Source of the DNA: Candidatus Caenarcanales bacterium
GTDB taxonomy: Bacteria > Cyanobacteriota > Vampirovibrionia > LMEP-6097
Assembly: GCA_947459525.1 (NCBI GenBank)
Contig: CANHDW010000002.1
Coordinates: 1-50,552, forward strand
DNA: 50,552 nt
Direction of reading: 5' to 3'
Below are positions 882-50,016 of this stretch, in pieces. The number at the start of each line of letters is the position of its first letter. Positions within the stretch are counted from its first letter, which is position 1. The position numbers and the translations under genes are program-made. The notes beneath the pieces are model-generated. The model saw only the letters and a program-made list of their open reading frames with translations, searched no databases and had not been told where the DNA came from.

Positions 882-1874
882 CTAAAAACAAAAAGCCGAC
901 AGCGAAGCAATAACCACAACCGAAATAACCGTCAAGTAAATAGCAGCCTTTAAACCAAATGCCTGCTTATAAACAAAAACCGTAGTTAAATTCACAGAAG
1001 GACTAGCCGTCATAAAAGCAAGCACAGCTCCTATAGGCACTCCCATATTTAAAAATTCTTGGCTCATAGGAATATCCGCACCTGCACAAAAATAAAAAGG
1101 AAATGCGATCAGTGAGAAAATCCACGGCGATAAATATTTATTAGTTATCACAGCTCGAAAAGCAGTCAGGGATTCATAATTAAAATGAAGCAAGCTTGCA
1201 AGAGATACAGACAAAAGTATCCACGGTAAAAACTGTTTTATCGCAGCGACCAGATCCTCTCGTATATGTGCGAGGACTTCCGTCATCCCTAGTTTATGCT
1301 GATGGGACTGATCACCATCTTCAATTTCTACATTTCCATGATGATGATCAGTTTCACAACAATGTTCCTTGGACGATCCACCTGGAACTAATCTCAACGC
1401 AATAAAATCTGCAATTTTAGCTTCTCCGAAGAAAATGAAAACGTATGTAACTAAAACAGCAAAAGCTATCGCCATTAATAAACGATAGACACTAATCTCC
1501 AAGCCAAAAATTCCATAATTAAGGATTAAAGCTGGAACACTACAAGCATTTCCAGCAAGCAAAAAAGCTAAAATTATTTTCCAGTCAAGCTGCTTACGAT
1601 ACAGTCCTAGAGCAAGTGGAATCATTCCACAGGTGCAAATAGGAATTAATGCACCGAGAAAAGCTGAAACTAATATCATCAAAAAAAGACGTAATTGATA
1701 GCTTAAAAACCGTAAAATTTCCCAAGAAGAATTAGCTCCAGCTAAAGTAACTAATCCTATCTTTTCAAAATACCCATCTGGTAAATAAACTTCTATTAAA
1801 GATGAACAAATAACCGCAACAAAGAATACTGGAAGTATCTCAAGCAATATATGAATAAAATGCTCTATAAACAC
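882..1874 (-). CDS. Predicted permease (DUF318/ArsP-like family) with a His/Cys-rich loop
   Basis: Polytopic membrane protein with the motif LGALIPICTCGMIPLALGL typical of the PF03773-type permeases. The central loop is KEHCCETDHHHGNVEIEDGDQSHQHK. Confidence 0.6.
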   Translation of the reverse strand: MFIEHFIHILLEILPVFFVAVICSSLIEVYLPDGYFEKIGLVTLAGANSSWEILRFLSYQLRLFLMILVSAFLGALIPICTCGMIPLALGLYRKQLDWKIILAFLLAGNACSVPALILNYGIFGLEISVYRLLMAIAFAVLVTYVFIFFGEAKIADFIALRLVPGGSSKEHCCETDHHHGNVEIEDGDQSHQHKLGMTEVLAHIREDLVAAIKQFLPWILLSVSLASLLHFNYESLTAFRAVITNKYLSPWIFSLIAFPFYFCAGADIPMSQEFLNMGVPIGAVLAFMTASPSVNLTTVFVYKQAFGLKAAIYLTVISVVVIASLSAFCF

Positions 1875-4836: not shown

Positions 4837-4875
4837 GGGATTGTTCACGATCTTTTATTTCTGCGTTTTCGTCCC
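4837..4875 (+). repeat. Solo head fragment of the dispersed repeat family
   Basis: GGGATTGTTCACGATCTTTTATTTCTGCGTTTTCGTCCC. Compare GGGACTGCCCACAATCTTCAATTTCTGCGTTTTCGTCGTCC at 20023. Confidence 0.6.
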
Positions 4876-7572: not shown

Positions 7573-7658
7573 TATATGGAATCATCCCTATTTTTAAAAC
7601 AGACGAATTAATATGATAGCACATGAATGCCAATAAATGTTAAGATTTAATATAAGCA

Positions 7659-9065
7659 TTGCAAAAAGCAGACACTAATTTCAAAGAACTACTGAGGAAA
7701 TACGGTGGAGCAATACCTCGTTACACGAGCTATCCTACAGCTCCAGAGTGGAAAACGCCTTATACTAGAACCGCCTTTGAGACTGCGATTGAAGCTTCAA
7801 ATATCGGAAATAATAATTATTCTTTATACCTTCACCTACCTTTCTGCGAAAGTCAGTGTTATTACTGTGCTTGCAATATCATCATAAGCAAGAAGCATGA
7901 AATCAGTAAATCTTACATAAAGCGCATCAAAGAAGAGATTGAGTATATAGGTGAAAAAATCTCACCTGAACGAAAAGTCATACAAATGGCTTGGGGCGGG
8001 GGTACTCCAACATTTCTGCACCCTGATGAGTTAGAAGAAATTTATGAACACCTTGCTAAATATTTTAATCTTTTAGATAAAGCTGATGAGCCATTTTTTA
8101 ACCACGAATATTCTATTGAGATAGACCCAAGAGTCACAAGCAATGAGCACCTAAAAACTCTATCCAGGCTAGGTTTTAATCGACTCAGCATGGGAGTACA
8201 AGATTTTAATGAAAAAACTCAAGAAGCTATCAATCGTATTCAGACATATGAATCAGTAGAAAATATGCTAAACATTGCTCGTGATAATAATTTCAGTAGC
8301 GTTAATTTTGATTTAATTTATGGCTTACCACATCAGAATTTAGAAACATTTAAAAAAACTATTGAGCAAGTCATAAAACTATCACCAGAAAGAATTGCGC
8401 TCTTTAATTATGCTCACATACCAGATTTTTTCCCGTTTCAGAAAAAATACATTGAAGAAGAGACACTGCCAGACCAAAAAACCAAATTAGAGATATTTGA
8501 ATTTGCGATGAGATCTTTTATTGCAGAAGGTTATGAATTCATAGGCTTAGATCATTTTGCAAGACCCGAAGATGAACTCTCTAAAGCTCACAAGAACAAA
8601 AAACTTTATCGCAATTTTCAGGGTTACACCACTCATGATGGCTGCGATCTATTCGGCATAGGACTAACTGCCATATCCTCTGTCCAAGGAACTTACAAGC
8701 AAAATAAAAAAAAATTAAGTGAATATTACAATGACGAAGAGCCTTTTGCCGCAGAAAAATTTTTCATTTCCGATATGCAAGATATTGAACGCAAAGAAAT
8801 TATTAAAGAGATAATGTGCCATTTTTATACTGAACTAGATTATGAAAAATATAAAGAAGAATATTATTTATTAGAATCTTTTACTCAAGATGGCTTAATT
8901 GAACTTAATCATGTCGTACCTAACGAAAATCATCTTGACAGTAATAAAAAGTTTTCCATTACCGTAACTGAGCTTGGACGCCTATTTGTGCGTAATATCG
9001 CAAGTGTTTTTGACTATTACCTAAAGCAAAAAAATGCCCATAAGCTTTTCTCTAAATCACTTTAA
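7659..9065 (+). CDS. hemN: Oxygen-independent coproporphyrinogen III oxidase (radical SAM, HemN)
   Basis: Motifs PRYTSYPTAPEW, CESQCYYCAC (CxxxCxxC) and a HemN C-terminal domain. Confidence 0.9.
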   Translation: MQKADTNFKELLRKYGGAIPRYTSYPTAPEWKTPYTRTAFETAIEASNIGNNNYSLYLHLPFCESQCYYCACNIIISKKHEISKSYIKRIKEEIEYIGEKISPERKVIQMAWGGGTPTFLHPDELEEIYEHLAKYFNLLDKADEPFFNHEYSIEIDPRVTSNEHLKTLSRLGFNRLSMGVQDFNEKTQEAINRIQTYESVENMLNIARDNNFSSVNFDLIYGLPHQNLETFKKTIEQVIKLSPERIALFNYAHIPDFFPFQKKYIEEETLPDQKTKLEIFEFAMRSFIAEGYEFIGLDHFARPEDELSKAHKNKKLYRNFQGYTTHDGCDLFGIGLTAISSVQGTYKQNKKKLSEYYNDEEPFAAEKFFISDMQDIERKEIIKEIMCHFYTELDYEKYKEEYYLLESFTQDGLIELNHVVPNENHLDSNKKFSITVTELGRLFVRNIASVFDYYLKQKNAHKLFSKSL

Positions 9066-15880: not shown

Positions 15881-15912
15881 AGAATTTGCTTTTTGCGTTT
15901 TCGTCTTCTTCA
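15881..15912 (+). repeat. Possible degenerate head fragment of the dispersed repeat
   Basis: AGAATTTGCTTTTTGCGTTTTCGTCTTCTTCA versus the consensus CCAATTTCTGCGTTTTCGTCGTCCTCA. Lies between convergent genes and overlaps the mgtA stop. Confidence 0.3.
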
Positions 15913-19915: not shown

Positions 19916-19936
19916 TACCAAAGGTTTATTAAAAAA

Positions 19937-20013
19937 CGACAGAGACGAAGATCTGTAAAAGCGCCAGCTTTTACAATGAAAAAGGCAACCCTCAAGCTCA
20001 AGTCCCTTCGTCG
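19937..20013 (-). repeat. Decayed copy of the tRNA-Asp-derived tRNA-like hairpin unit (unit 1)
   Basis: CGACAGAGACGAAGATCTGTAAAAGCGCCAGCTTTTACAATGAAAAAGGCAACCCTCAAGCTCAAGTCCCTTCGTCG aligns along its whole length with unit 2. Confidence 0.7.
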
Positions 20014-20020
20014 ATGCTAA

Positions 20021-20144
20021 TAGGGACTGCCCACAATCTTCAATTTCTGCGTTTTCGTCGTCCTCATGACCTCATGTACCTTCAGTACACTGCGGTCATT
20101 CGTCCTCCTCAGCCTTGAACTTGTGCGTTTGTGAACAGTCCCTA
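20021..20144 (+). mobile_element. Full-length MITE-like copy of the dispersed repeat (variant arms)
   Basis: Terminal inverted arms TAGGGACTGCCCACAA and TTGTGAACAGTCCCTA flank the conserved core. It sits between two paralogous units, one of which provides an empty site. Confidence 0.85.
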
Positions 20145-20160
20145 ATTTAATTTTAAAAAA

Positions 20161-20241
20161 TGGCGGAGACGAAGATCTGTAAAAGCGCCAGCTTTTACAA
20201 TGAAAAAGTAAACCCTTAGGGTTCAAGTCCCTTCGTCTCCG
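20161..20241 (-). ncRNA. tRNA-Asp-derived tRNA-like hairpin unit (unit 2); function unknown
   Basis: It starts with TGGCGGAGACGAAG, identical to 20262-20275 under the tRNA 3' end. It ends with GGGTTCAAGTCCCTTCGTCTCCG, an inverted copy of the tRNA T-arm plus acceptor. On the minus strand it ends ...CTTCGTCTCC-G-CCA followed by a T-run. Confidence 0.45.
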
Positions 20242-20261
20242 TTATTTTAATTTATTAAAAA

Positions 20262-20338
20262 TGGCGGAGACGAAGGGACTTGAACCCTCGACCCCCTGCG
20301 TGACAGACAGGTGCTCTAACCAACTGAGCTACGCCTCC
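20262..20338 (-). tRNA. tRNA-Asp (anticodon GUC), CCA encoded
   Basis: Cloverleaf folded by hand. Acceptor GGAGGCG/CGTCTCC, D-arm GCTC-AGTTGGTTA-GAGC, anticodon arm CCTGT-CTGTCAC-GCAGG, T-arm GAGGG-TTCAAGT-CCCTT, discriminator G, then CCA. Confidence 0.92.
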
Positions 20339-31818: not shown

Positions 31819-32190
31819 ATGTTAAAGTACGATACAGAGAATCTTCCACGCATTACCTTTAAAGGAAAAAGGCTTACCGAAAAGCAAATCGCAGTCCTAG
31901 AATTTCTAGCACAGGGGCAGACGAATACAGAAATAGCCGAAAATCTTTTCCTCTCTGTAAGAACTGTAGAATCACACATCTCTAGAATTAGAAGTATTAT
32001 AAGCGAACATATGCCCCAGTCACAGAGAATCAGTGATAGACAGCTCGTTTTATTCGCAAAAGATCTAATCGATGGCTTTAAAATTTTCGACATACTGAAA
32101 AGCGGCATGAATGAAGGCTTTGAGCTGTCAGAATTTAAAACTTATCAAAAAACAGTAAGCCTGAATAATGATAGATATTATATTCAATGA
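31819..32190 (+). CDS. LuxR/FixJ-type HTH transcriptional regulator (stand-alone; HTH is N-terminal)
   Basis: LTEKQIAVLEFLAQGQTNTEIAENLFLSVRTVESHISRIRSII. Confidence 0.75.
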   Translation: MLKYDTENLPRITFKGKRLTEKQIAVLEFLAQGQTNTEIAENLFLSVRTVESHISRIRSIISEHMPQSQRISDRQLVLFAKDLIDGFKIFDILKSGMNEGFELSEFKTYQKTVSLNNDRYYIQ

Positions 32191-32358
32191 GGCGGGCGAA
32201 AACGCAGAAATTGGAGTTGTGCAGCGGTCTCTTTTGGGCGTGTAGCCAAACGAACAAGTTCAAGGTCTGAGGAGGATGAATGACCGCAATGTATCAAGCA
32301 TACATGAGGATCATGAGGACAACGAAAACGCAGAAATTGGAGTTTCGCTACACGCCCC
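32187..32358 (-). mobile_element. Full-length repeat copy (32236-32357) plus an adjacent partial head (32187-32232)
   Basis: Arms GGGCGTGTAGCCAAAC and GTTTCGCTACACGCCC flank a reverse-complemented core. The element fills the whole spacer between the luxR-type stop and the argS stop. Confidence 0.9.
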
Positions 32359-32360
32359 TG

Positions 32361-34256
32361 TTACATTTTCTCTGGTGCAGAGATCGCAAGTATACTAAGA
32401 GCATTTTTTATAACTATCTTAGAAGCTGCCACCAGAGATAACCTAGCCTTCATAACCTCTTCGTTTTCACCTATAATACGATTTTCATTATAGAACTGAT
32501 GAAATAAGCTAGCTAAATTCTTTAAGTAGACTGAGATTTTATAAGGTGCCCTGATATCAGCAGCATCAATAACAAGCTTAGGTAATTCAATCAATTCTAA
32601 AACTAAGCTTCTGATAGTTTTCAACTGCTCTTCACTATGATATTCATCAGAAAAGAGTTTCTTGAAATTTGCAGAAAATGTTTTAAACTCTTCATTTAAT
32701 AAACGTTCTAGCTCATCTACTTCAAAAATAGCAGCTTCTTCCGTATTATCAACTATATTGATACGAGGGCTTACTAAATTACGAAATATACTTGCCGAGC
32801 GGGCATGTGCATACTGTATGTAGTAAACTGGATTATCTTTATCATGTTTTTGCGCTAAAGCTAAATCAAAAACCATGCGATTATTGGCTTGGCTATCCAC
32901 CAGAAAGAATCTCAGGGCATCTTTACCGACTTCAGCTAAAAGCTCATCAACGTTAACTATAGTGCCTTTGCGCTTAGACATTTTTTTCTCAACGCCATCT
33001 TCTTTAACGGAAACCAATTGAATAAAAATCAACTCTAGCTGATCAGGATTATAGCCAATAGCTTGAATCGCCCCACGAATGCCAAGCTCTTGACCATGAT
33101 GATCGCTGCCCCAAACATTAATTAACTTATCAAAGCCTCTGTCAAATTTATCTTTATGATAGGCGATATCACCAGCTAAATAAGTGAACATGCCTTGAGA
33201 TTTTCTAAGGACTCTATCTCGCTCATCACCAAAGGATTTCGCTCTAAACCATAGAGCCGAGTCTTCTTCATACACAGCAGAGACCTCATGGGCGTGGAGC
33301 GGAACTCCAATTTCTGCGTTTTCACCCGCCTCATGATGCTCCGTCACATCTTCTTGCTTTACTTTTACTGCTTTCAGTGTTTCACAGATTAACTCAATTT
33401 TATTTTTATCATTAATTTTCACTTGATGTAGATTCTCGTTCTCCGAGTACCACGTATCGAAATGAACTTCTATGTCAGCTAAAACTTTCTTCTGTAAATC
33501 AAGAAAAAGACTTTTCGCTAATTTACCAGCTATTTCTTTTGCTTGATCACCAGCAAGGGAAGCCGCATCCAAATAGCCTTTTAGCTTAGCTTTATAAATC
33601 TCCGGCTTTAAAACATCTAACATGGAATCCAGTGGATAAGCATCCACTGGATAATTTTCCTTAGTGATGTGACCCTCTTGAATTTGAATTGCAGCTTGAG
33701 CAGAGAGTGAAAGCTTTTCTATCTGCACACCAGCGTCATTAATATAAAATTCACTAGATACATCGTAACCAGCCCAGTCAAGTAATCTTGCAAGAGAATT
33801 ACCCAGAACTGCTTGCCTGCCATGACCTAAATGTAGATTACCAGTAGGATTCGCTGAAACATACTCTATAAGAAAGCGATGCGGCTCCATATCAGCCCGA
33901 GCTTCTTTAGATAAACGCCCATAATTATCTTTCTCTTGATGAATCTCTACTAGAGCAGATTCTAAAAAATCCCAATTCAAACGAATATTAATAAACCCTG
34001 GACCAGCGATAGATATATCACCAATGGCAACTACATCCAAATGTTTTACTATACTTTGAGCTATCTTTACTGGTGCTAGTTTCGCCTCACGAGACAGCTT
34101 TAGGGCTATACTTACGGCGATATCGCCATGATCAGGGTTTTTACATCTCTCCACATCTATATAATCAGAAAAACTTTTCAGCTCACCTAAGTCAGATGCC
34201 GCAATAGCTTTATTTATAGCTATTTGGAATAAATTACGAATCTTGCTGCTTAACAT
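32361..34256 (-). CDS. argS: Arginine--tRNA ligase
   Basis: HIGH-type motif NPTGNLHLGHGR, MSKRKG (KMSKS) and a C-terminal DALR domain. At 631 aa it is longer than typical and carries an internal repeat-derived segment. Confidence 0.95.
   Translation of the reverse strand: MLSSKIRNLFQIAINKAIAASDLGELKSFSDYIDVERCKNPDHGDIAVSIALKLSREAKLAPVKIAQSIVKHLDVVAIGDISIAGPGFINIRLNWDFLESALVEIHQEKDNYGRLSKEARADMEPHRFLIEYVSANPTGNLHLGHGRQAVLGNSLARLLDWAGYDVSSEFYINDAGVQIEKLSLSAQAAIQIQEGHITKENYPVDAYPLDSMLDVLKPEIYKAKLKGYLDAASLAGDQAKEIAGKLAKSLFLDLQKKVLADIEVHFDTWYSENENLHQVKINDKNKIELICETLKAVKVKQEDVTEHHEAGENAEIGVPLHAHEVSAVYEEDSALWFRAKSFGDERDRVLRKSQGMFTYLAGDIAYHKDKFDRGFDKLINVWGSDHHGQELGIRGAIQAIGYNPDQLELIFIQLVSVKEDGVEKKMSKRKGTIVNVDELLAEVGKDALRFFLVDSQANNRMVFDLALAQKHDKDNPVYYIQYAHARSASIFRNLVSPRINIVDNTEEAAIFEVDELERLLNEEFKTFSANFKKLFSDEYHSEEQLKTIRSLVLELIELPKLVIDAADIRAPYKISVYLKNLASLFHQFYNENRIIGENEEVMKARLSLVAASKIVIKNALSILAISAPEKM
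33291..33341 (+). repeat. In-frame intragenic copy of the repeat head inside argS
   Basis: GGCGTGGAGCGGAACTCCAATTTCTGCGTTTTCACCCGCCTCATGATGCTC versus 47872-47922 GGCGTGTAGCGAAACTCCAATTTCTGCGTTTTCGTCGTCCTCATGATCCTC (44 of 51 nt identical by hand alignment). Confidence 0.8.
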
Positions 34257-38138: not shown

Positions 38139-39341
38139 TTAGAGTTTTTTTATTAATGCAAAGATATCTCTGCTGCTTTCAGGTCTTGCAAAGCGATACA
38201 AATTTTTCTTCATCGCCGATATTTTCTCAGGGTTCTTCGCTAAGTCGAAAAGCAAATCAGCAATCTCCTTTTGCGGAGAGTATCGCACAATTCCATTTTC
38301 TGCATTTTCACCACCAGAAAAGGCATCTTGGCGAATCATGAAACCACAACCAGCCTTAACTAAAGCCTCTGCATTTTTAGTCTGATGATCATGAGCAGCC
38401 CAAGGTAAAGGAATTAATATTGGTACTATCAGCGACACTGCCATTTCAGCACAAGTCATAGCACCAGCCCTGCAAATAGCTATATCAACGGTTTTAGAAA
38501 TATTTGCCATCTCATGGGTATAACTTAAAACCTTATAGTTAGAGTATTTATTCGGATCAGCATTTAAATATTTACTTACATGCTCATCAAAAAGCTTAGA
38601 ACCTGTAATGTGAATAATAGATATTCTTTTACCTTCAAGAGCTAATCTCTGATTAAAATCCTCAAAATCTTTAAGTAAAATGCCTATACTATCATTAACG
38701 AACTGGGAACCCTGACTACCACCAGTTACCAAAACCCTCAAATGATTTTCATCACGACTAGCAGCAGCCCCATCAGCGGCTTCCCTATAAATATTTATAA
38801 AATCTTGTGAGACTGGATTACCCGTGTAACGATATTTATCATTAAAATTTACATTTATCGGAAAGCCTAAGCTCACACGACTCGCAAATATTTTAAATAA
38901 TTTATTTACCAATCCAAAATTACTATCAAGATTATGAATTAGGAACTTTGTTTTCGTTATCACACAGGCAAGAAACACTGGCGCTGCCACGTAACCACCC
39001 GTACCCATCACTACGTCAATTTTATTTTCTCTCAGGTAGTTCACAGAGCATTTATAAGCTTTAAAAAAAATACCAAACCATTCTAAGTTTTCTTTAAAAG
39101 AATTATTTCGAGATGGCAGCTTTGGAGCATTAATAGGAAGAAACTGGATATATTCTTTTCTTAGACACAGTTCCTGCTCCAGTTTTCCTTCACCACCAAT
39201 ATAGTAAAGAAAGTTTTTTTCAGCCCCAGCTCGATTACTTTCATCTTCAAATAGCTCAGCTACAGCAAGACATGGATAAATATGTCCTCCAGTGCCTCCT
39301 CCCGTAAACGCAACTCGCACAAGAATATCCTCTATCAACAA
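38139..39341 (-). CDS. murG: UDP-GlcNAc--undecaprenyl-PP-MurNAc-pentapeptide GlcNAc transferase
   Basis: N-terminal FTGGGTGGHIYP and C-terminal CRAGAMTCAEM...AHDHQTKNA. Confidence 0.92.
   Translation of the reverse strand: MLIEDILVRVAFTGGGTGGHIYPCLAVAELFEDESNRAGAEKNFLYYIGGEGKLEQELCLRKEYIQFLPINAPKLPSRNNSFKENLEWFGIFFKAYKCSVNYLRENKIDVVMGTGGYVAAPVFLACVITKTKFLIHNLDSNFGLVNKLFKIFASRVSLGFPINVNFNDKYRYTGNPVSQDFINIYREAADGAAASRDENHLRVLVTGGSQGSQFVNDSIGILLKDFEDFNQRLALEGKRISIIHITGSKLFDEHVSKYLNADPNKYSNYKVLSYTHEMANISKTVDIAICRAGAMTCAEMAVSLIVPILIPLPWAAHDHQTKNAEALVKAGCGFMIRQDAFSGGENAENGIVRYSPQKEIADLLFDLAKNPEKISAMKKNLYRFARPESSRDIFALIKKL
38285..38318 (+). repeat. In-frame intragenic copy of the repeat head inside murG
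   Basis: GCACAATTCCATTTTCTGCATTTTCACCACCAG. Its reverse complement aligns with 32191-32231 (GGCGGGCGAAAACGCAGAAATTGGAGTTGTGCAGCGGTCTC). It encodes GGENAENGIV. Confidence 0.65.
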
Positions 39342-42852: not shown

Positions 42853-43134
42853 ATGGGTTTAGGTGGATTACCTTCAATTGGCGGACAAGGACCAAATATA
42901 GGTCCGGGTAATAACGGTGCTTCGCAAAATAAAGGTGGAGCAGAGTTTTCACTTGAGCAACAGAAGTCTAATTTAGCCCAAGCTCAAGCCGCACAAGATA
43001 AAGCTAATTCAGCACTTTCTGGTGCTAAATTAATGAAGATTATAGATAAGAAAAAGAAAAACCGTAAAGGTGCTCCCCGCACCATGCTTATAGACGGCGA
43101 AATTTACGAAGTTTATCTTCTAGCGATAGCTTAA
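42853..43134 (+). CDS. Hypothetical small Gly/Gln-rich protein
   Basis: 93-aa ORF with a low-complexity N-terminus. Confidence 0.35.
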   Translation: MGLGGLPSIGGQGPNIGPGNNGASQNKGGAEFSLEQQKSNLAQAQAAQDKANSALSGAKLMKIIDKKKKNRKGAPRTMLIDGEIYEVYLLAIA

Positions 43135-43147
43135 AACTGCACGTTAG

Positions 43148-43180
43148 GCAGCGGTCTTTTAAATTGTGCACCAGTCTCTA
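43148..43180 (-). repeat. Possible degenerate fragment of the repeat arm motif
   Basis: GCAGCGGTCTTTT and TTGTGCACCAGTCTCTA resemble TTGTGCAGCGGTCTCTTTT at 32217-32235. Lies between convergent genes. Confidence 0.3.
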
Positions 43181-47155: not shown

Positions 47156-47869
47156 ATGGTAGAAATGAATCGTAGAAATTTTCTTAACGCGGCCGCATTT
47201 ACTGGCTTAGGTCTTGGACTCAGTAATGTACTTGGCGCTTGCTCTAAAGGAGGAAAGTTTAATATAAACGAACTCTATCCCATTTATAAAGACGGTCAAT
47301 ATCAAGAAAAAAACTTTGAGCACCTGACTAAAAACGATAAACTCGGCTTAAGCCCAGAAATTATAAAAAACCATCTAGGACTATATTCTAATTACATTAA
47401 AAATGTAAACCAAGCTGAAGCTGAGATGTCAGTAGGGAATATTACAGAATTCGGGATGAAGCATCTAGCCTTCTCTCTAAATGGCATGGCTTTACATGAT
47501 ATCTATTTTACGAACATGAGCACAGAAGAATCTAAGCGTAGTTCTAGCCTGAATAGAGCTATTGATAAAACCTTTGGGTCCTTCGATGCCTACATGAAAA
47601 ATTTAACAGAACTCGCGATGAAAGTAGAAGGCTGGTCAGTAACGGGTCTTAATCTACTTAACGGTAAAATTTTCAATTACGCTCTGCAAGACCACTCTGC
47701 TAATTTCCCTAATTTTATAGTTCCGATATTAGCCCTAGATGTTTATGAACATGCTTATGTAGCCGATTTCAAGAAAGAAGGTAAAGCGAAGTATCTTGAA
47801 GCTTTTACGAAAATTATTGATTGGGATATAGTGAGCCGCAGGCTTGACCTTGTTAAAAACTTAGTCTAA
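47156..47869 (+). CDS. Divergent Fe/Mn-type superoxide dismutase family protein with a Tat signal and lipobox
   Basis: Tat motif NRRNFL and lipobox LGAC. C-terminal LDVYEHAYVADF (compare D-x-W-E-H-A-Y-Y). The His ligand positions are conserved in NHLGLY and LHDIYF. Confidence 0.65.
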   Translation: MVEMNRRNFLNAAAFTGLGLGLSNVLGACSKGGKFNINELYPIYKDGQYQEKNFEHLTKNDKLGLSPEIIKNHLGLYSNYIKNVNQAEAEMSVGNITEFGMKHLAFSLNGMALHDIYFTNMSTEESKRSSSLNRAIDKTFGSFDAYMKNLTELAMKVEGWSVTGLNLLNGKIFNYALQDHSANFPNFIVPILALDVYEHAYVADFKKEGKAKYLEAFTKIIDWDIVSRRLDLVKNLV

Positions 47870-47871
47870 GT

Positions 47872-48110
47872 GGCGTGTAGCGAAACTCCAATTTCTGCGT
47901 TTTCGTCGTCCTCATGATCCTCATGTAAGCTTGATGAATCAAGCTTGTATTTCCGCTTGCTCGCATATGAGACTTGTCTCGCATGCTCGGCATCGCCGGA
48001 AATTACCCGCAGTACACTGCGGTCATTCGTCCTCCTCGGCCTTGAACTTGTTCGTTTGGCTACACGCCCCTAAGAGACCGCTGAACAACTCCATCTTCTG
48101 CGTTCATGAC
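47872..48110 (+). mobile_element. Longest full-length repeat copy (47872-48068) plus an adjacent partial head (48069-48110)
   Basis: Arms GGCGTGTAGCGAAAC and GTTTGGCTACACGCC, the conserved core, and an 84-nt extra central segment. It fills the spacer between two convergent genes. Confidence 0.9.
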
Positions 48111-48928
48111 TTAATCGTAAAGTCACCGCTCCAGCATATTCTATAGACTAGATTAGTAGCAAGCTCACTTGCTATATCCATGATATTTTCACGAACATCT
48201 TGACTCAGTAAGGCTTCCAGCCCTAAATTACCGAGAGAATCACGATCTTCTTGAACATAATCTATAAATTCCTCTCTCTTCTCTTCACTTAAATTTAAAG
48301 CAGCAGCATCTTTAATATAAATAGTCGTCAGCTGATGCTCTGCACTTAATTTCTTTAGATAATTAAAAATCTGAATATTGATCTCTACTAAATGCCCAAG
48401 CTGATAATTCAACAAGGCATTCATGCCGATTAAGGTTTGTACTGGATTAAGAATAGTTAAAACTAGCGTTTTTTCACTATCGATTTCCTCTATACTCAGA
48501 CTCTGTTCAGGTAGCTGGTTTAAATTCGCTTGATAATATAACTGTTCTCTTTCTATGACCTCTAAACGATTTTCAACAGTTAGCCTATATTCTTCAACGA
48601 AATCCAGAAGCTCATCTGGTTCGTCTAAATTATCAATAATAAAAGCTTTTAATTCAGAGCCTTTGAGTTTAAGCTTCTTAAATTCAGCAATAACTTTCTC
48701 TACATCTAGAATAGATGGGGCTAACTGAATTACCTTAAAGAAACTAGAAAAATAATCAGATACCTTATCGGTAATGATTTTACCGAAAGGTTTACAGGAT
48801 TCTTTTATCTCCGTGCAGGTCTTTAAATATTGAGCGTTTAAGTCCTCGACTAAAGCTGACTTTTCTTCTTCTAAAAGAGATTTTTGGAATATTTCGATTA
48901 AGGTTTCCTCATCCATGTCTTTACTCAC
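48104..48928 (-). CDS. Hypothetical acidic protein
   Basis: 274-aa ORF, Glu/Leu-rich, with no recognised motif. Its stop codon lies in the repeat tail. Confidence 0.5.
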   Translation of the reverse strand: MSKDMDEETLIEIFQKSLLEEEKSALVEDLNAQYLKTCTEIKESCKPFGKIITDKVSDYFSSFFKVIQLAPSILDVEKVIAEFKKLKLKGSELKAFIIDNLDEPDELLDFVEEYRLTVENRLEVIEREQLYYQANLNQLPEQSLSIEEIDSEKTLVLTILNPVQTLIGMNALLNYQLGHLVEINIQIFNYLKKLSAEHQLTTIYIKDAAALNLSEEKREEFIDYVQEDRDSLGNLGLEALLSQDVRENIMDIASELATNLVYRICWSGDFTIKS

Positions 48929-49014: not shown

Positions 49015-49944
49015 TTAAGAAATTATTTTATGAACTCTAAAGTAATTGGCTCCAGCTTCATAACAGAGTTCATTATATCTTTGCGTTAATAAATCCAAAT
49101 CCATATTACGCTCTGCAAGAGTGCTATTACTTTCACACTGCTCACGAACTCCATTTTCTGCGTTTAAAGCAGCGCCTAAAAAAGACTTACGACTAGCTCC
49201 TATAAGTATTTCAGGATTAAACTCCCGAGACCGCCACATGATTTTATTTTCTGCATTTTTAAGTTTCGGCAAAATCTCAATTAAATCATAGCTGTGATTA
49301 TAATTTTTACCAAAACCTAATCCTGGATCAAGAATTACCCTAGCTAAGTCAATACCATAATTTTCACATAAATCTAAAAATCGAGAAAAAAAATCTATTA
49401 AATGCATTTCAAAAGCGGCTTTCTCATTTTTAGCCTGAGGATAATCACTTAAATAGTAATCTTCTGGAACCTCTAAAGCCTTTAAACTTGGTGGCACACC
49501 ACCTTTCGAGTGCATCGCTATAAGTTTAATCTTCTGTTCTTTATCATACTTAGAAATAAGCTCAAGCTTACGCTCATCAGTAAAGCCTTCTACATCATTT
49601 AAAAAAGATATTTTTTCCTTAAAGAAAGGCTCTAATAGTAAGGCTTCCATGATTTCATATTTGCGAGTATCTATAGATAAAGGGAAATCATATTTACTAC
49701 AAAAAATTTTTAAAAAATTTTCCAAACGCTGATATTCTTCAATCGCTGATACAGGCTCCGCATCAGGGCGAGTAGATTCTGCCCCTACATCTAAAGCGTA
49801 AGCTCCACTTTCCATAAGCTTCTCTGCTTTATCTAAAAGCCAGCCAAGATCACAAAAATCCTTAGAACCATCTGAAAATGAGTCTGGAGTTATATTTAAT
49901 ATCGCTAAATACTTAGCACTTTTCATATTTCCAAATCTAGGCAC
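49015..49944 (-). CDS. folP: Dihydropteroate synthase
   Basis: ILNITPDSFSDGS, DVGAESTRP, DPGLGFGK, GASRKSF and RVHKI. The likely true start is the ATG at 49926 (MKSAKYLAILN...). Confidence 0.92.
   Translation of the reverse strand: MPRFGNMKSAKYLAILNITPDSFSDGSKDFCDLGWLLDKAEKLMESGAYALDVGAESTRPDAEPVSAIEEYQRLENFLKIFCSKYDFPLSIDTRKYEIMEALLLEPFFKEKISFLNDVEGFTDERKLELISKYDKEQKIKLIAMHSKGGVPPSLKALEVPEDYYLSDYPQAKNEKAAFEMHLIDFFSRFLDLCENYGIDLARVILDPGLGFGKNYNHSYDLIEILPKLKNAENKIMWRSREFNPEILIGASRKSFLGAALNAENGVREQCESNSTLAERNMDLDLLTQRYNELCYEAGANYFRVHKIIS
49145..49165 (+). repeat. Short in-frame copy of the repeat head inside folP
   Basis: CGAACTCCATTTTCTGCGTTT versus the consensus CGAAACTCCAATTTCTGCGTTT. It encodes NAENGV in the same frame as the argS and murG copies. 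Confidence 0.45.
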
Positions 49945-50016
49945 GGTTACCGAACTCCGATTTCTGCGTTAGTGCCATCTCTGGGGACTGCTTACAATCT
50001 TCAATTTCTGCGTTTT
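49945..50016 (+). repeat. Two tandem head fragments of the repeat between folP and the next gene
   Basis: GGTTACCGAACTCCGATTTCTGCGTT (49945-49970) and GGGGACTGCTTACAATCTTCAATTTCTGCGTTTTTT (49983-50016). Confidence 0.7.

What the first reader, a model, noticed from the sequence alone, without database searches (positions are those of the whole stretch)
47872..48110. Dispersed, structured repeat family at about 10 loci in 50 kb (longest copy here)
The same core recurs at 4837, 20021, 32187-32358 (reverse-complemented), 33291, 38285, 47872, 49145, 49945 and 49983, and weakly at 15881 and 43148. The core reads AACTCCAATTTCTGCGTTTTCGTCGTCCTCATGA(T/C)C(C)TCATGTA, then a variable hairpin, then CTGCGGTCATTCGTCCTCCTC(A/G)GCCTTGAACTTGT(T/G)CGTTT. 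Three copies are full length with terminal inverted arms: 20021-20144, 32236-32357 and 47872-48068. Two of them are directly followed by a second partial head (...AAGAGACCGCTG.ACAACTCCA..TTCTGCGTT), which gives a BIME-like tandem layout. Five of the intergenic loci lie in spacers between convergent genes. No transposase is adjacent to any copy. I cannot assign the sequence to any named repeat or MITE family from memory.
Basis: seen in the sequence. Interest (0 to 1): 0.8.

Follow-up and report, generated by a model that had tools for sequence, protein, structure and literature searches.

The report
Gene-invading miniature transposon in Melainabacteria
The repeat is real: it is a previously undescribed 121-bp miniature transposon of uncultured Melainabacteria (non-photosynthetic relatives of cyanobacteria) that duplicates 5 bp on insertion, so each copy adds exactly 42 codons and many sit in frame inside essential genes, as the palindromic elements of Rickettsia do.

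Summary
The window is a Melainabacteria (Vampirovibrionia) contig. The same family fills five related MAG species: 236 profile hits in 771 kb.

The interpretation needs changing. This is not a BIME-like or RNA-type repeat. It is a MITE of 121 bp with 13-16-bp terminal inverted repeats in four co-varying tip subfamilies, and it makes a 5-bp target-site duplication. Flanking pentamers match 5/5 in 24 and 4/5 in 23 of 103 copies, against 0.9 and 5.6 expected. Filled and empty orthologous sites exist.

Element plus duplication is 126 bp, or 42 codons. Of 105 full-length copies, 38 lie inside long ORFs, as do 56 of 95 head-only copies. All are antisense to the head-to-tail orientation. All but one ambiguous copy use the single frame ...RTSSRLRRTNDRSVLxVHEDHEDDENAEIGV.... 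Host genes include RadA-, MurE- and GlpD-like genes and, in the window, ArgRS, MurG, FolP and a permease.

The "variable hairpin" of the 47871-48069 copy is a nested 78-bp insert with a TA duplication. No transposase partner was found. No Rfam, plasmid, phage or literature match exists. Verdict: a new member of a known kind, a MITE that behaves like Rickettsia RPEs.

The parts
47871..48069 (+). Full-length copy, long form (199 nt), tip subfamily a (TGGCGTGTAGC...GCTACACGCCC). It lies between the SOD gene (47156-47869, +) and ORF 48104-48928 (-).
   Evidence: The orthologous copy L046 (DUDT01000014) is the 121-nt form.
47866..47870 (.). Left copy of the 5-bp target-site duplication CTAAG. It contains the TAA stop codon of the SOD gene.
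48070..48074 (.). Right copy of the target-site duplication CTAAG.
47928..48005 (+). Nested 78-bp micro-element (variant V1, AGCTTGATGAATCAAGCTTGTATTTCCGCTTGCTCG...GGAAATTA) inserted at GTA^C of the apical hairpin. The TA at 47926-47927 is repeated at 48004-48005.
   Evidence: It is absent from the orthologous copy in L046.
48074..48106 (+). Partial head of a second, subfamily-c copy (GAGACCGCTGAACAACTCCATCTTCTGCGTTCATGA). It abuts the duplication of the first copy and ends in the TGA stop codon (TCA on + at 48104-48106) of ORF 48104-48928 (-).
32237..32357 (-). Full-length canonical copy (121 nt, subfamily a) starting 2 nt after the ArgRS stop codon. Flanking pentamers are AACAG/AAAAG (4 of 5).
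32187..32231 (-). Partial head (subfamily c) in tandem after the previous copy. Its far end supplies the TGA stop codon (32188-32190) of the LuxR-type gene 31819-32190 (+).
20023..20142 (+). Full-length copy (120 nt, subfamily d, GGGACTGCCCAC...GTGAACAGTCCC) next to tRNA-Asp. Flanking pentamers are TAATA (20018-20022) and TAATT (20143-20147).
33291..33341 (+). Head-only copy (51 nt, 17 codons) inside the ArgRS gene (32361-34256, -), read antisense as EHHEAGENAEIGVPLHAHE. Close relatives lack it or carry decayed versions.
38276..38310 (+). Degenerate head inside murG (38139-39341, -), read as GGENAENGIVRYS.
49137..49165 (+). Degenerate head inside folP (49015-49944, -), read as LNAENGVREQC.
1304..1339 (+). 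Degenerate head inside the ArsP-type permease gene (882-1874, -), read as HGNVEIEDGDQSH. The profile score is weak (E 0.42).
4837..4873 (+). Mini-copy (head with a collapsed stem, ATGGGA...TCCCAT) between 5S rRNA and the PNPase gene.
49941..49970 (+). Internally deleted mini-copy (GGCACGGTTACCGAACTCCGATTTCTGCGTTAGTGCC) just upstream of folP. It is absent at the orthologous site in L046 and L068.
49984..50016 (+). Head-only copy (subfamily d). It overlaps the 3' end of a small minus-strand ORF that ends ...GGYKKRRN*.
15889..15912 (+). Weak core fragment at the 3' end of the P-type ATPase gene (E 0.27). Membership is uncertain.
43130..43156 (+). Weak tail fragment (E 0.82). Membership is uncertain.

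Best explanation
It is a non-autonomous DNA transposon (a MITE).

Anatomy. The canonical unit is 121 bp. The outer 13 nt of its 13-16-bp terminal inverted repeats (the tips) are variable and come in four co-varying types: GGGCGTGTAGCG, GGCACTGTTGCC, GAGACCGCTGCAC and GGGACTGCTCGC. The interior is almost invariant. An apical hairpin reads CATGTAC-N5-GTACACTG.

Insertion. It inserts at G-poor pentamers and duplicates 5 bp. This implies a staggered cut by a transposase supplied in trans, which was not found; that step is inferred.

Why it survives in genes. Element plus duplication is 126 bp, or 42 codons. One antisense frame is stop-free and encodes a hydrophilic peptide with a basic half and an acidic, His-rich half (GRVAKRTSSRLRRTNDRSVLKVHEDHEDDENAEIGVSLHA). 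Insertions inside genes in that orientation and frame therefore leave the gene's frame intact and persist. Copies in other phases survive only in spacers, typically right after stop codons and between convergent genes.

Partial copies. Head-only copies are remnants of full copies that lost the tail side by deletion, often at microhomologies, and then decay. This is inferred.

The copy in the finding. The long copy at the finding's coordinates additionally hosts a 78-bp nested micro-element that targets the GTAC of the apical hairpin and duplicates TA.
For: Target duplication:
- With boundaries fixed from the motifs, 24 of 103 full copies have identical flanking pentamers and 23 have 4 of 5. 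Shuffled pairing gives 0.9 and 5.6.
- The signal exists only for length 5 and falls off when the two boundaries are moved out of step.
- In the window: CTAAG/CTAAG at 47871-48069 and TAATA/TAATT at 20023-20142.

Filled versus empty orthologous sites:
- L072 vs L089, L088 vs L008, and L034 vs L109 (the last keeps a 16-nt stub).
- The ArgRS head is 51 nt longer than in L005. ArgRS proteins 94-97% identical lack 17-19 residues there or carry decayed versions.

Family size: 236 profile hits in 771 kb from the window and five MAG species.

Frame:
- (length+5) is a multiple of 3 in 100 of 105 full copies.
- Antisense frame r1 is stop-free in 84 copies and sense frame f1 in 66, yet all 38 in-ORF full copies use r1 (binomial 7e-12).
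- All 56 in-ORF head copies lie on that strand, 55 of them in r1.
- Pfam domains of RadA-like, MurE and GlpD proteins are split into two stretches around the insert.

DNA rather than RNA constraint: in the outer stem there are 1095 Watson-Crick pairs, 41 G-T and 55 A-C, so there is no strand asymmetry.

No other identity: no Rfam family and no terminator-like site.
Against: - No autonomous partner or transposase with matching ends was found in the window. No repeated transposase-like gene was seen in the 0.77 Mb sampled; only multi-copy ORFs were read, and by eye.
- The extreme tips, which are normally the most conserved part of DDE-transposon ends, are the most variable part here and co-vary between the two ends.
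- Interiors of orthologous copies are more conserved (93%) than their flanks (80%), based on 8 pairs. This needs an extra constraint or gene conversion.
- The excess of head-only over tail-only copies (about 90 versus a few) is only explained by inference.
Confidence: 0.8

Rival explanations
1. It is a structured non-coding RNA or a REP/BIME-like regulatory palindrome (terminator, mRNA stabiliser) that is kept for its RNA or DNA hairpin.
For: Full copies fold into long hairpins with z-scores of -4.2 to -6.8 on both strands. Many copies sit just after stop codons in convergent spacers. The outer stem shows compensatory changes at 13 of 16 positions.
Against: - A 5-bp target duplication of variable sequence flanks the copies.
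- G-T and A-C mismatches are equally frequent, so neither strand is favoured.
- There is no Rfam hit even at E<=10.
- There is no T-run or terminator-like site.
- 94 sampled copies lie inside ORFs.
- Tandem copies are direct, not alternating.
Confidence: 0.05
2. The element is primarily a mobile protein module. Its 42-residue peptide (basic half plus acidic/His-rich half) has a function, for example metal binding, regulation or localisation, and selection for that function drives its spread and conservation.
For: Only one of two open frames is ever used. The interior is about 99% conserved across copies. In orthologous copies it is more conserved than the flanks. The nested inserts are also multiples of 3: 78, 81 and 69 nt.
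Against: - Intergenic copies are just as conserved, so the constraint is not at the peptide level.
- The peptide matches no Pfam family.
- The ArgRS insert decays or is lost in close relatives.
- Exclusive use of one frame is also expected if the other open frame's hydrophobic, Cys-rich peptide is simply deleterious.
Confidence: 0.1
3. Mobilisation depends on a single-strand hairpin (REPIN/RAYT or IS200/IS605-like HUH enzyme), or on reverse transcription that leaves truncated copies.
For: The tips keep pairing rather than sequence. Subfamily a carries a GTAG. Partial copies nearly always keep the same end: 111 head parts against 29 tail parts, most of the latter being halves of long forms.
Against: From my knowledge of these families, HUH/RAYT elements and IS200/IS605 make no target duplication; here there is a fixed 5-bp one. 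GTAG is absent from three of the four subfamilies. No RAYT or RT-like gene was noticed in the window or among the multi-copy ORFs of the loci, although the loci were not scanned systematically. There is no A-tail.
Confidence: 0.05

Closest known systems
Rickettsia palindromic elements (RPE; Ogata et al. 2000, as summarised in PMC10969869 and PMC3184786)
   Same: Both are palindromic repeats of about 105-150 bp that are dispersed through the genome. A large share is inserted in frame into unrelated housekeeping genes and adds a conserved peptide. No transposase is associated with either.
   Different: The host is an unrelated phylum (Melainabacteria). This family shows clear terminal inverted repeats and a 5-bp target duplication, so that the unit is exactly 42 codons. 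I could not test sequence similarity to RPE consensus sequences because they were not available to me.
Classical bacterial MITEs (Correia/NEMIS, RUP, ERIC, and cyanobacterial Nezha and MaeMITE; PMC3184786)
   Same: Small size, terminal inverted repeats, flanking direct repeats, stable hairpin, high copy number, filled and empty orthologous sites, and occasional ORF fusions.
   Different: No partner IS is known here, whereas Nezha shares its ends with ISNpu3. The duplication is 5 bp; from my own knowledge Correia and RUP duplicate TA. Intragenic in-frame copies are much more frequent here. There are four tip subfamilies around one shared interior. blastn found nothing similar in the plasmid collection.
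Tn3-derived inverted-repeat miniature elements (TIMEs) and other elements with a 5-bp duplication
   Same: A 5-bp duplication at A+T-rich targets and ends that begin with GGG. This comparison rests on my own knowledge of the Tn3 family.
   Different: From memory, Tn3-family ends are about 38 bp, start with GGGG and end with TAAG. Here pairing stops after 16 nt and there is no TAAG. No TnpA was found.
REP/BIME
   Same: Extragenic palindromes that often lie between convergent genes and are sometimes clustered.
   Different: REPs are about 35 nt, GC-rich, tagged with GTAG or CGTC, arranged in alternating orientation and linked to RAYT (PMC3733652). This element is 121 nt, makes a target duplication, forms direct tandems and invades genes.

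Membership tests
MITE (non-autonomous DNA transposon) | Small size (<~300 bp) with no coding capacity for a transposase | tested here: met
   The element is 121 bp (199-202 bp with the nested insert). Its longest frame encodes 40 residues with no Pfam hit.
MITE (non-autonomous DNA transposon) | Terminal inverted repeats | tested here: met
   The 16 outer positions pair in 1095 of 1280 cells. The 5' and 3' tip types agree in 92 of 105 copies.
MITE (non-autonomous DNA transposon) | Target-site duplication of fixed length and variable sequence | tested here: met
   The duplication is 5 bp. 47 of 103 copies have at least 4 of 5 matches, against 6.5 expected, and the signal exists only for length 5.
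MITE (non-autonomous DNA transposon) | High copy number, with presence/absence polymorphism at orthologous sites | tested here: met
   There are 236 hits in 771 kb. Filled and empty pairs are shown, and the ArgRS insertion/deletion series.
MITE (non-autonomous DNA transposon) | An autonomous IS with the same ends that supplies the transposase | tested here: inconclusive
   None was found in the window or in the sampled loci. Only fragments of draft MAGs were available and ISfinder was not. Similarity to IS1 ends was not significant.
RPE-type protein-coding palindromic repeat | Recurrent in-frame insertion into unrelated protein genes that adds one conserved peptide | tested here: met
   94 copies lie in ORFs, and all but one ambiguous copy use one frame. 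Pfam domains of RadA-like, MurE and GlpD proteins are split around the insert. In the window the hosts are ArgRS, MurG, FolP and a permease.
RPE-type protein-coding palindromic repeat | Sequence homology to RPE-1 to RPE-10 and a Rickettsia host | not testable with these tools
   RPE consensus sequences were not at hand. The host is Melainabacteria, so homology is unlikely.
REP/BIME | ~35-nt GC-rich palindromic units tagged with GTAG or CGTC, in alternating orientation, and without target duplication | tested here: not met
   The unit is 121 nt. GTAG occurs in only one of four subfamilies. Tandems are direct with 5-nt spacers. A target duplication is present.
Known structured RNA family (Rfam 15) | A match to a covariance model | tested here: not met
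   In the whole window only 5S rRNA and tRNA reach gathering score. At E<=10 on two copies the only hit is sX9, at 13.6 bits against a cut-off of 44.

The most novel reading that the evidence does not exclude
The element could be more than a tolerated parasite. In this reading it is a mobile 42-residue protein cassette (a basic RTSSRLRRTNDRS half plus an acidic, His-rich HEDHEDDENAE half) whose peptide, or whose conserved interior DNA, is under selection, and it moves by a mechanism that recognises end pairing rather than end sequence. That would explain three things together: tips that co-vary, an interior that is more conserved than the flanking genes, and exclusive use of one frame.
Probability: 0.1. 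Interest if true: 0.85.

Novelty: new member of a known kind. Interest (0 to 1): 0.55.

Why it matters
Wholesale in-frame colonisation of housekeeping genes by a palindromic repeat has so far been best documented in Rickettsia. A 2024 review only speculates that it may happen elsewhere (PMC10969869). This family is an independent and very dense case in a different phylum.

Unlike what I know of RPEs, it has a clear insertion signature: inverted ends and a 5-bp duplication that together give exactly 42 codons. That makes it possible to date, count and reconstruct insertions, and to ask how proteins such as ArgRS, MurE, RadA and GlpD absorb 42 extra residues.

There is also a practical side. Gene callers annotate intergenic copies as 33-70-residue hypothetical proteins, and the repeats can be expected to fragment the MAG assemblies. 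A model of the family would improve annotation of Vampirovibrionia genomes.

Tried and rejected
- Rfam at gathering score on the whole window and at E<=10 on two copies: nothing relevant.
- blastn in distant mode against plasmids and phages, and a pattern scan of viral contigs: no match.
- Search for an autonomous parent, i.e. a head and a tail 0.4-7 kb apart: two cases only. One holds a LexA-like gene (identified by eye) and the other is 498 bp.
- Multi-copy ORFs in the sampled loci: they read by eye as AAA-ATPase/DUF4143-like and ABC-ATPase paralogues, not transposases. Pfam was not run on them.
- Similarity of the ends to IS1, an idea from memory (GGnnnTG ends): not significant, with 12-481 of 500 shuffles scoring as well.
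- RNA-strand test by G-U versus A-C counts: no asymmetry, so the RNA-helix reading was dropped.
- AlphaFold2 model of the window ArgRS, to see whether the insert lies in a surface loop: mean pLDDT 52, unusable. The closest solved ArgRS (3fnr) aligns poorly over the insert, so the site could not be placed on a structure.
- Peptide search of the protein database: it returned only tiny 'hypothetical proteins' from the same lineage and missed the large host proteins, so it says little about host range.
- Literature searches for a Melainabacteria/Vampirovibrionia MITE or palindromic repeat: nothing found.

Full report
**Observation.** The 13-nt core TTTCTGCGTTTTC occurs 15 times (up to 2 mismatches) against 2.5 expected. 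The two tail motifs each occur three times against about zero expected. A profile built only from copies in other genomes finds three full-length copies in the window: 20023-20142 (+), 32237-32357 (-) and 47871-48069 (+). It also finds eight clear partial copies and three weak fragments. The inverted terminal arms, the partial 'head' that follows two full copies, and the location in spacers between convergent genes are all as described.

**Host and distribution.** The ArgRS encoded at 32361-34256 is 100% identical to a protein from a 'Candidatus Melainabacteria bacterium' MAG. Its nearest named relatives are Melainabacteria/Vampirovibrionia, with Caenarcaniphilales at about 62% identity. The window has about 36% G+C. 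It holds ordinary housekeeping genes and no transposase. Nearly all come from five related MAGs: DUDT01, JAGWWP01, JBJTTW01, JBMOEX01, and RFQS01, which is labelled 'Proteobacteria' but is 84-96% identical to the window in DNA. About eight hits in unrelated taxa are chance matches. In 771 kb of these loci plus the window the profile finds 236 matches: 85 canonical full copies, about 20 long forms, about 90 head-only copies and few tail-only ones.

**Anatomy.** The canonical unit is 121 nt. Positions 14-108 are about 99% conserved between copies. The outer 13 nt on each side are variable, and so is a 5-nt apical loop. The outer 16 positions of the two ends are complementary (1095 of 1280 cells), and 13 of these positions show two or more Watson-Crick pair types. 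The tips fall into four types: (a) GGGCGTGTAGCG, (b) GGCACTGTTGCC, (c) GAGACCGCTGCAC and (d) GGGACTGCTCGC. Every type occurs in every one of the five MAGs. The 5' and 3' tips are of the same type in 92 of 105 copies. G-T (41) and A-C (55) mismatches are equally common, so neither strand is favoured. This points to double-stranded inverted repeats rather than an RNA helix. The copies fold stably on both strands (z -4.2 to -6.8), which is expected of any long inverted repeat.

**It transposes.** I fixed the boundaries from the internal motifs: the start is 20 nt before ATTTCTGCGTTTTC and the end is 32 nt after ...TCGTCCTCCTC. With these boundaries the five bases before and after the element are identical in 24 of 103 copies and differ at one position in 23 more. 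Shuffled pairing predicts 0.9 and 5.6. The excess is seen only at length 5, not at 3, 4, 6, 7 or 8, and it falls off when the two boundaries are moved out of step. The pentamers differ from site to site (CTAAG, TAATT, ATATT, TTCAA, CTCAT and others), so they are target duplications and not a recombination core. They are G-poor and are often preceded by C. Orthologous filled and empty sites exist: L072 vs L089, L088 vs L008, and L034 vs L109, where a 16-nt stub remains. In the window, the 47871-48069 copy is flanked by CTAAG/CTAAG, and the left copy of that pentamer contains the SOD stop codon. The 20023 copy is flanked by TAATA/TAATT. Where copies are tandem they are head-to-tail, and the commonest spacer is exactly 5 nt (13 of 23). 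This suggests re-use of the duplicated target or duplication of the 126-nt unit. The layout is therefore not BIME-like.

**It lives inside genes.** 121 + 5 = 126 nt is 42 codons, and (length + 5) is a multiple of three in 100 of 105 full copies, long forms included. Two of the six frames are usually stop-free: sense frame 1 in 66 copies and antisense frame 1 in 84 copies. I called a copy 'in an ORF' when it lay inside a stop-free span with at least 450 nt beyond the element and at least 60 nt on each side. By this test 38 of 105 full copies and 56 of 95 head-only copies are in ORFs. All 94 are antisense to the head-to-tail orientation. All but one ambiguous case read the same frame...G(R/T)(V/A)A(K/E)RTSSRLRRTNDRSVLxVHEDHEDDENAEIGV(S/P/R)(L/Q)(H/Q)(A/C)... 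(binomial 7e-12 for the full copies alone). The hosts are real genes. RadA-like, MurE and GlpD proteins have their Pfam domains split into two matched stretches around the insert. Some genes carry two or three copies in tandem, still in frame (L037, L040). In the window, four genes carry in-frame head remnants:
- ArgRS: EHHEAGENAEIGVPLHAHE
- MurG: GGENAENGIVRYS
- FolP: LNAENGVREQC
- ArsP-type permease: GNVEIEDGDQSH

. For ArgRS, proteins 94-97% identical either lack 17-19 residues at that point or carry decayed versions, and more distant homologues have nothing there. At the DNA level the window has 51 extra bases relative to REEB446, with CCTCATG microhomology at the junction. This is the behaviour described for Rickettsia palindromic elements (PMC10969869, PMC3184786).

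**The 'variable hairpin'.** The longest copy (47871-48069) differs from its 121-nt orthologue in DUDT01 (L046) by a 78-nt insert at 47928-48005. The insert sits at GTA^C of the apical hairpin, and the TA is duplicated. The same insert occurs in 23 copies, in two variants and at two mirror-image positions of the hairpin. It was never seen outside the MITE. Its lengths (78, 81 and 69 nt) also keep the reading frame. The 5-nt loop is only 34% identical between orthologous copies. Some loops (TGCTTGATA) resemble the start of the insert. This suggests repeated insertion and imprecise loss at this spot, which is an inference.

**What remains unexplained.**
- No partner transposase or longer element with these ends was found. 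A remembered resemblance to IS1 ends did not hold up.
- The most terminal bases vary and co-vary between the two ends while the interior is shared. This is unusual for DDE-type ends. It could reflect several related transposases, gene conversion within a hairpin, or recognition of structure.
- In eight orthologous pairs the interior is more conserved (93%) than the flanks (80%). Because intergenic copies are as conserved as genic ones, I attribute this to a DNA-level constraint or concerted evolution rather than to the peptide.
- Head-only copies far outnumber tail-only ones. I infer deletions, some at internal direct repeats such as TTCGTC(G/C)TCCTCA or CGTTT, and possibly counter-selection of the basic half of the peptide.

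**Comparison and verdict.** The element meets every testable criterion of a MITE except a known partner. It shares the defining behaviour of RPEs, although I could not test sequence relatedness. It fails the REP/BIME criteria and matches no Rfam family, no plasmid, phage or viral sequence and no paper that I could find. I classify it as a new member of a known kind. Interest is moderate to high for mobile-DNA and protein-evolution specialists, because it is a second, mechanistically more legible case of massive in-frame colonisation of essential genes.

Noticed in passing
window 19929-20260 (next to tRNA-Asp, 20262-20338 on the minus strand): Two 64-nt direct repeats (19929-19992 and 20153-20216, 92% identical) begin with a copy of the tRNA-Asp 3' acceptor strand. 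An inverted copy of the T-arm plus acceptor lies at 20218-20248. On the + strand, about 20165-20241 reads as an acceptor-like stem, a 9-bp hairpin and a T-arm. It could be a tRNA-like RNA or old att-site relics. The MITE copy at 20023 sits between the two repeats. Orthologues in L014 and L028 keep at least part of the arrangement (the second repeat starts right after their copies).
   Followed up: no
window 47928-48005; 22 further copies in L002, L011, L013, L021, L026, L029, L031, L034, L035, L040, L042, L045, L050, L052, L062, L063, L064, L067, L076 and L098: A second, nested micro-element (67-79 nt plus a TA duplication, in two variants) occurs only inside the apical GTAC hairpin of the MITE. 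It is tandemly duplicated in L052. Its lengths are multiples of 3.
   Followed up: partly
L004 (minus strand, about 7620-7755); a related fragment in L040 (minus strand, about 3893): A third, 135-nt insert with its own hairpins occupies the same apical loop. It is flanked by CTAAG and CTTAAG, which suggests another small mobile element that uses this hotspot.
   Followed up: no
loci from RFQS01 (for example L028 and L068): The MAG labelled 'Proteobacteria bacterium WB4_1_1465' shares 84-96% DNA identity and the MITE family with the Melainabacteria window, so its taxonomic label is probably wrong.
   Followed up: partly
apical loop, element positions 59-63, in all copies: The 5-nt loop is hypervariable. 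It is 34% identical between orthologous copies, against 93% for the rest of the interior and 80% for the flanks.
   Followed up: partly
proteins P0121-P0173: Public annotations call intergenic MITE copies as 33-70-residue 'hypothetical proteins'. The antisense strand of the tail also carries a strong Shine-Dalgarno-like sequence plus ATG (GAGGAGGACGAATG).
   Followed up: no
L016, L026, L063, L070, L080, L007, L045, L021: A multi-copy family of 385-430-residue proteins recurs in the sampled loci. By eye they look like AAA-ATPases of the DUF4143 type (GARQVGKSTLL motif). One of them (in L037) carries three tandem MITE copies in frame.
   Followed up: no
window 32188-32190 and 48104-48106: Two genes, the LuxR-type gene 31819-32190 (+) and ORF 48104-48928 (-), end in a TGA that lies within the CCTCATGA part of a truncated MITE head. 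The element may therefore have redefined their C-termini.
   Followed up: no
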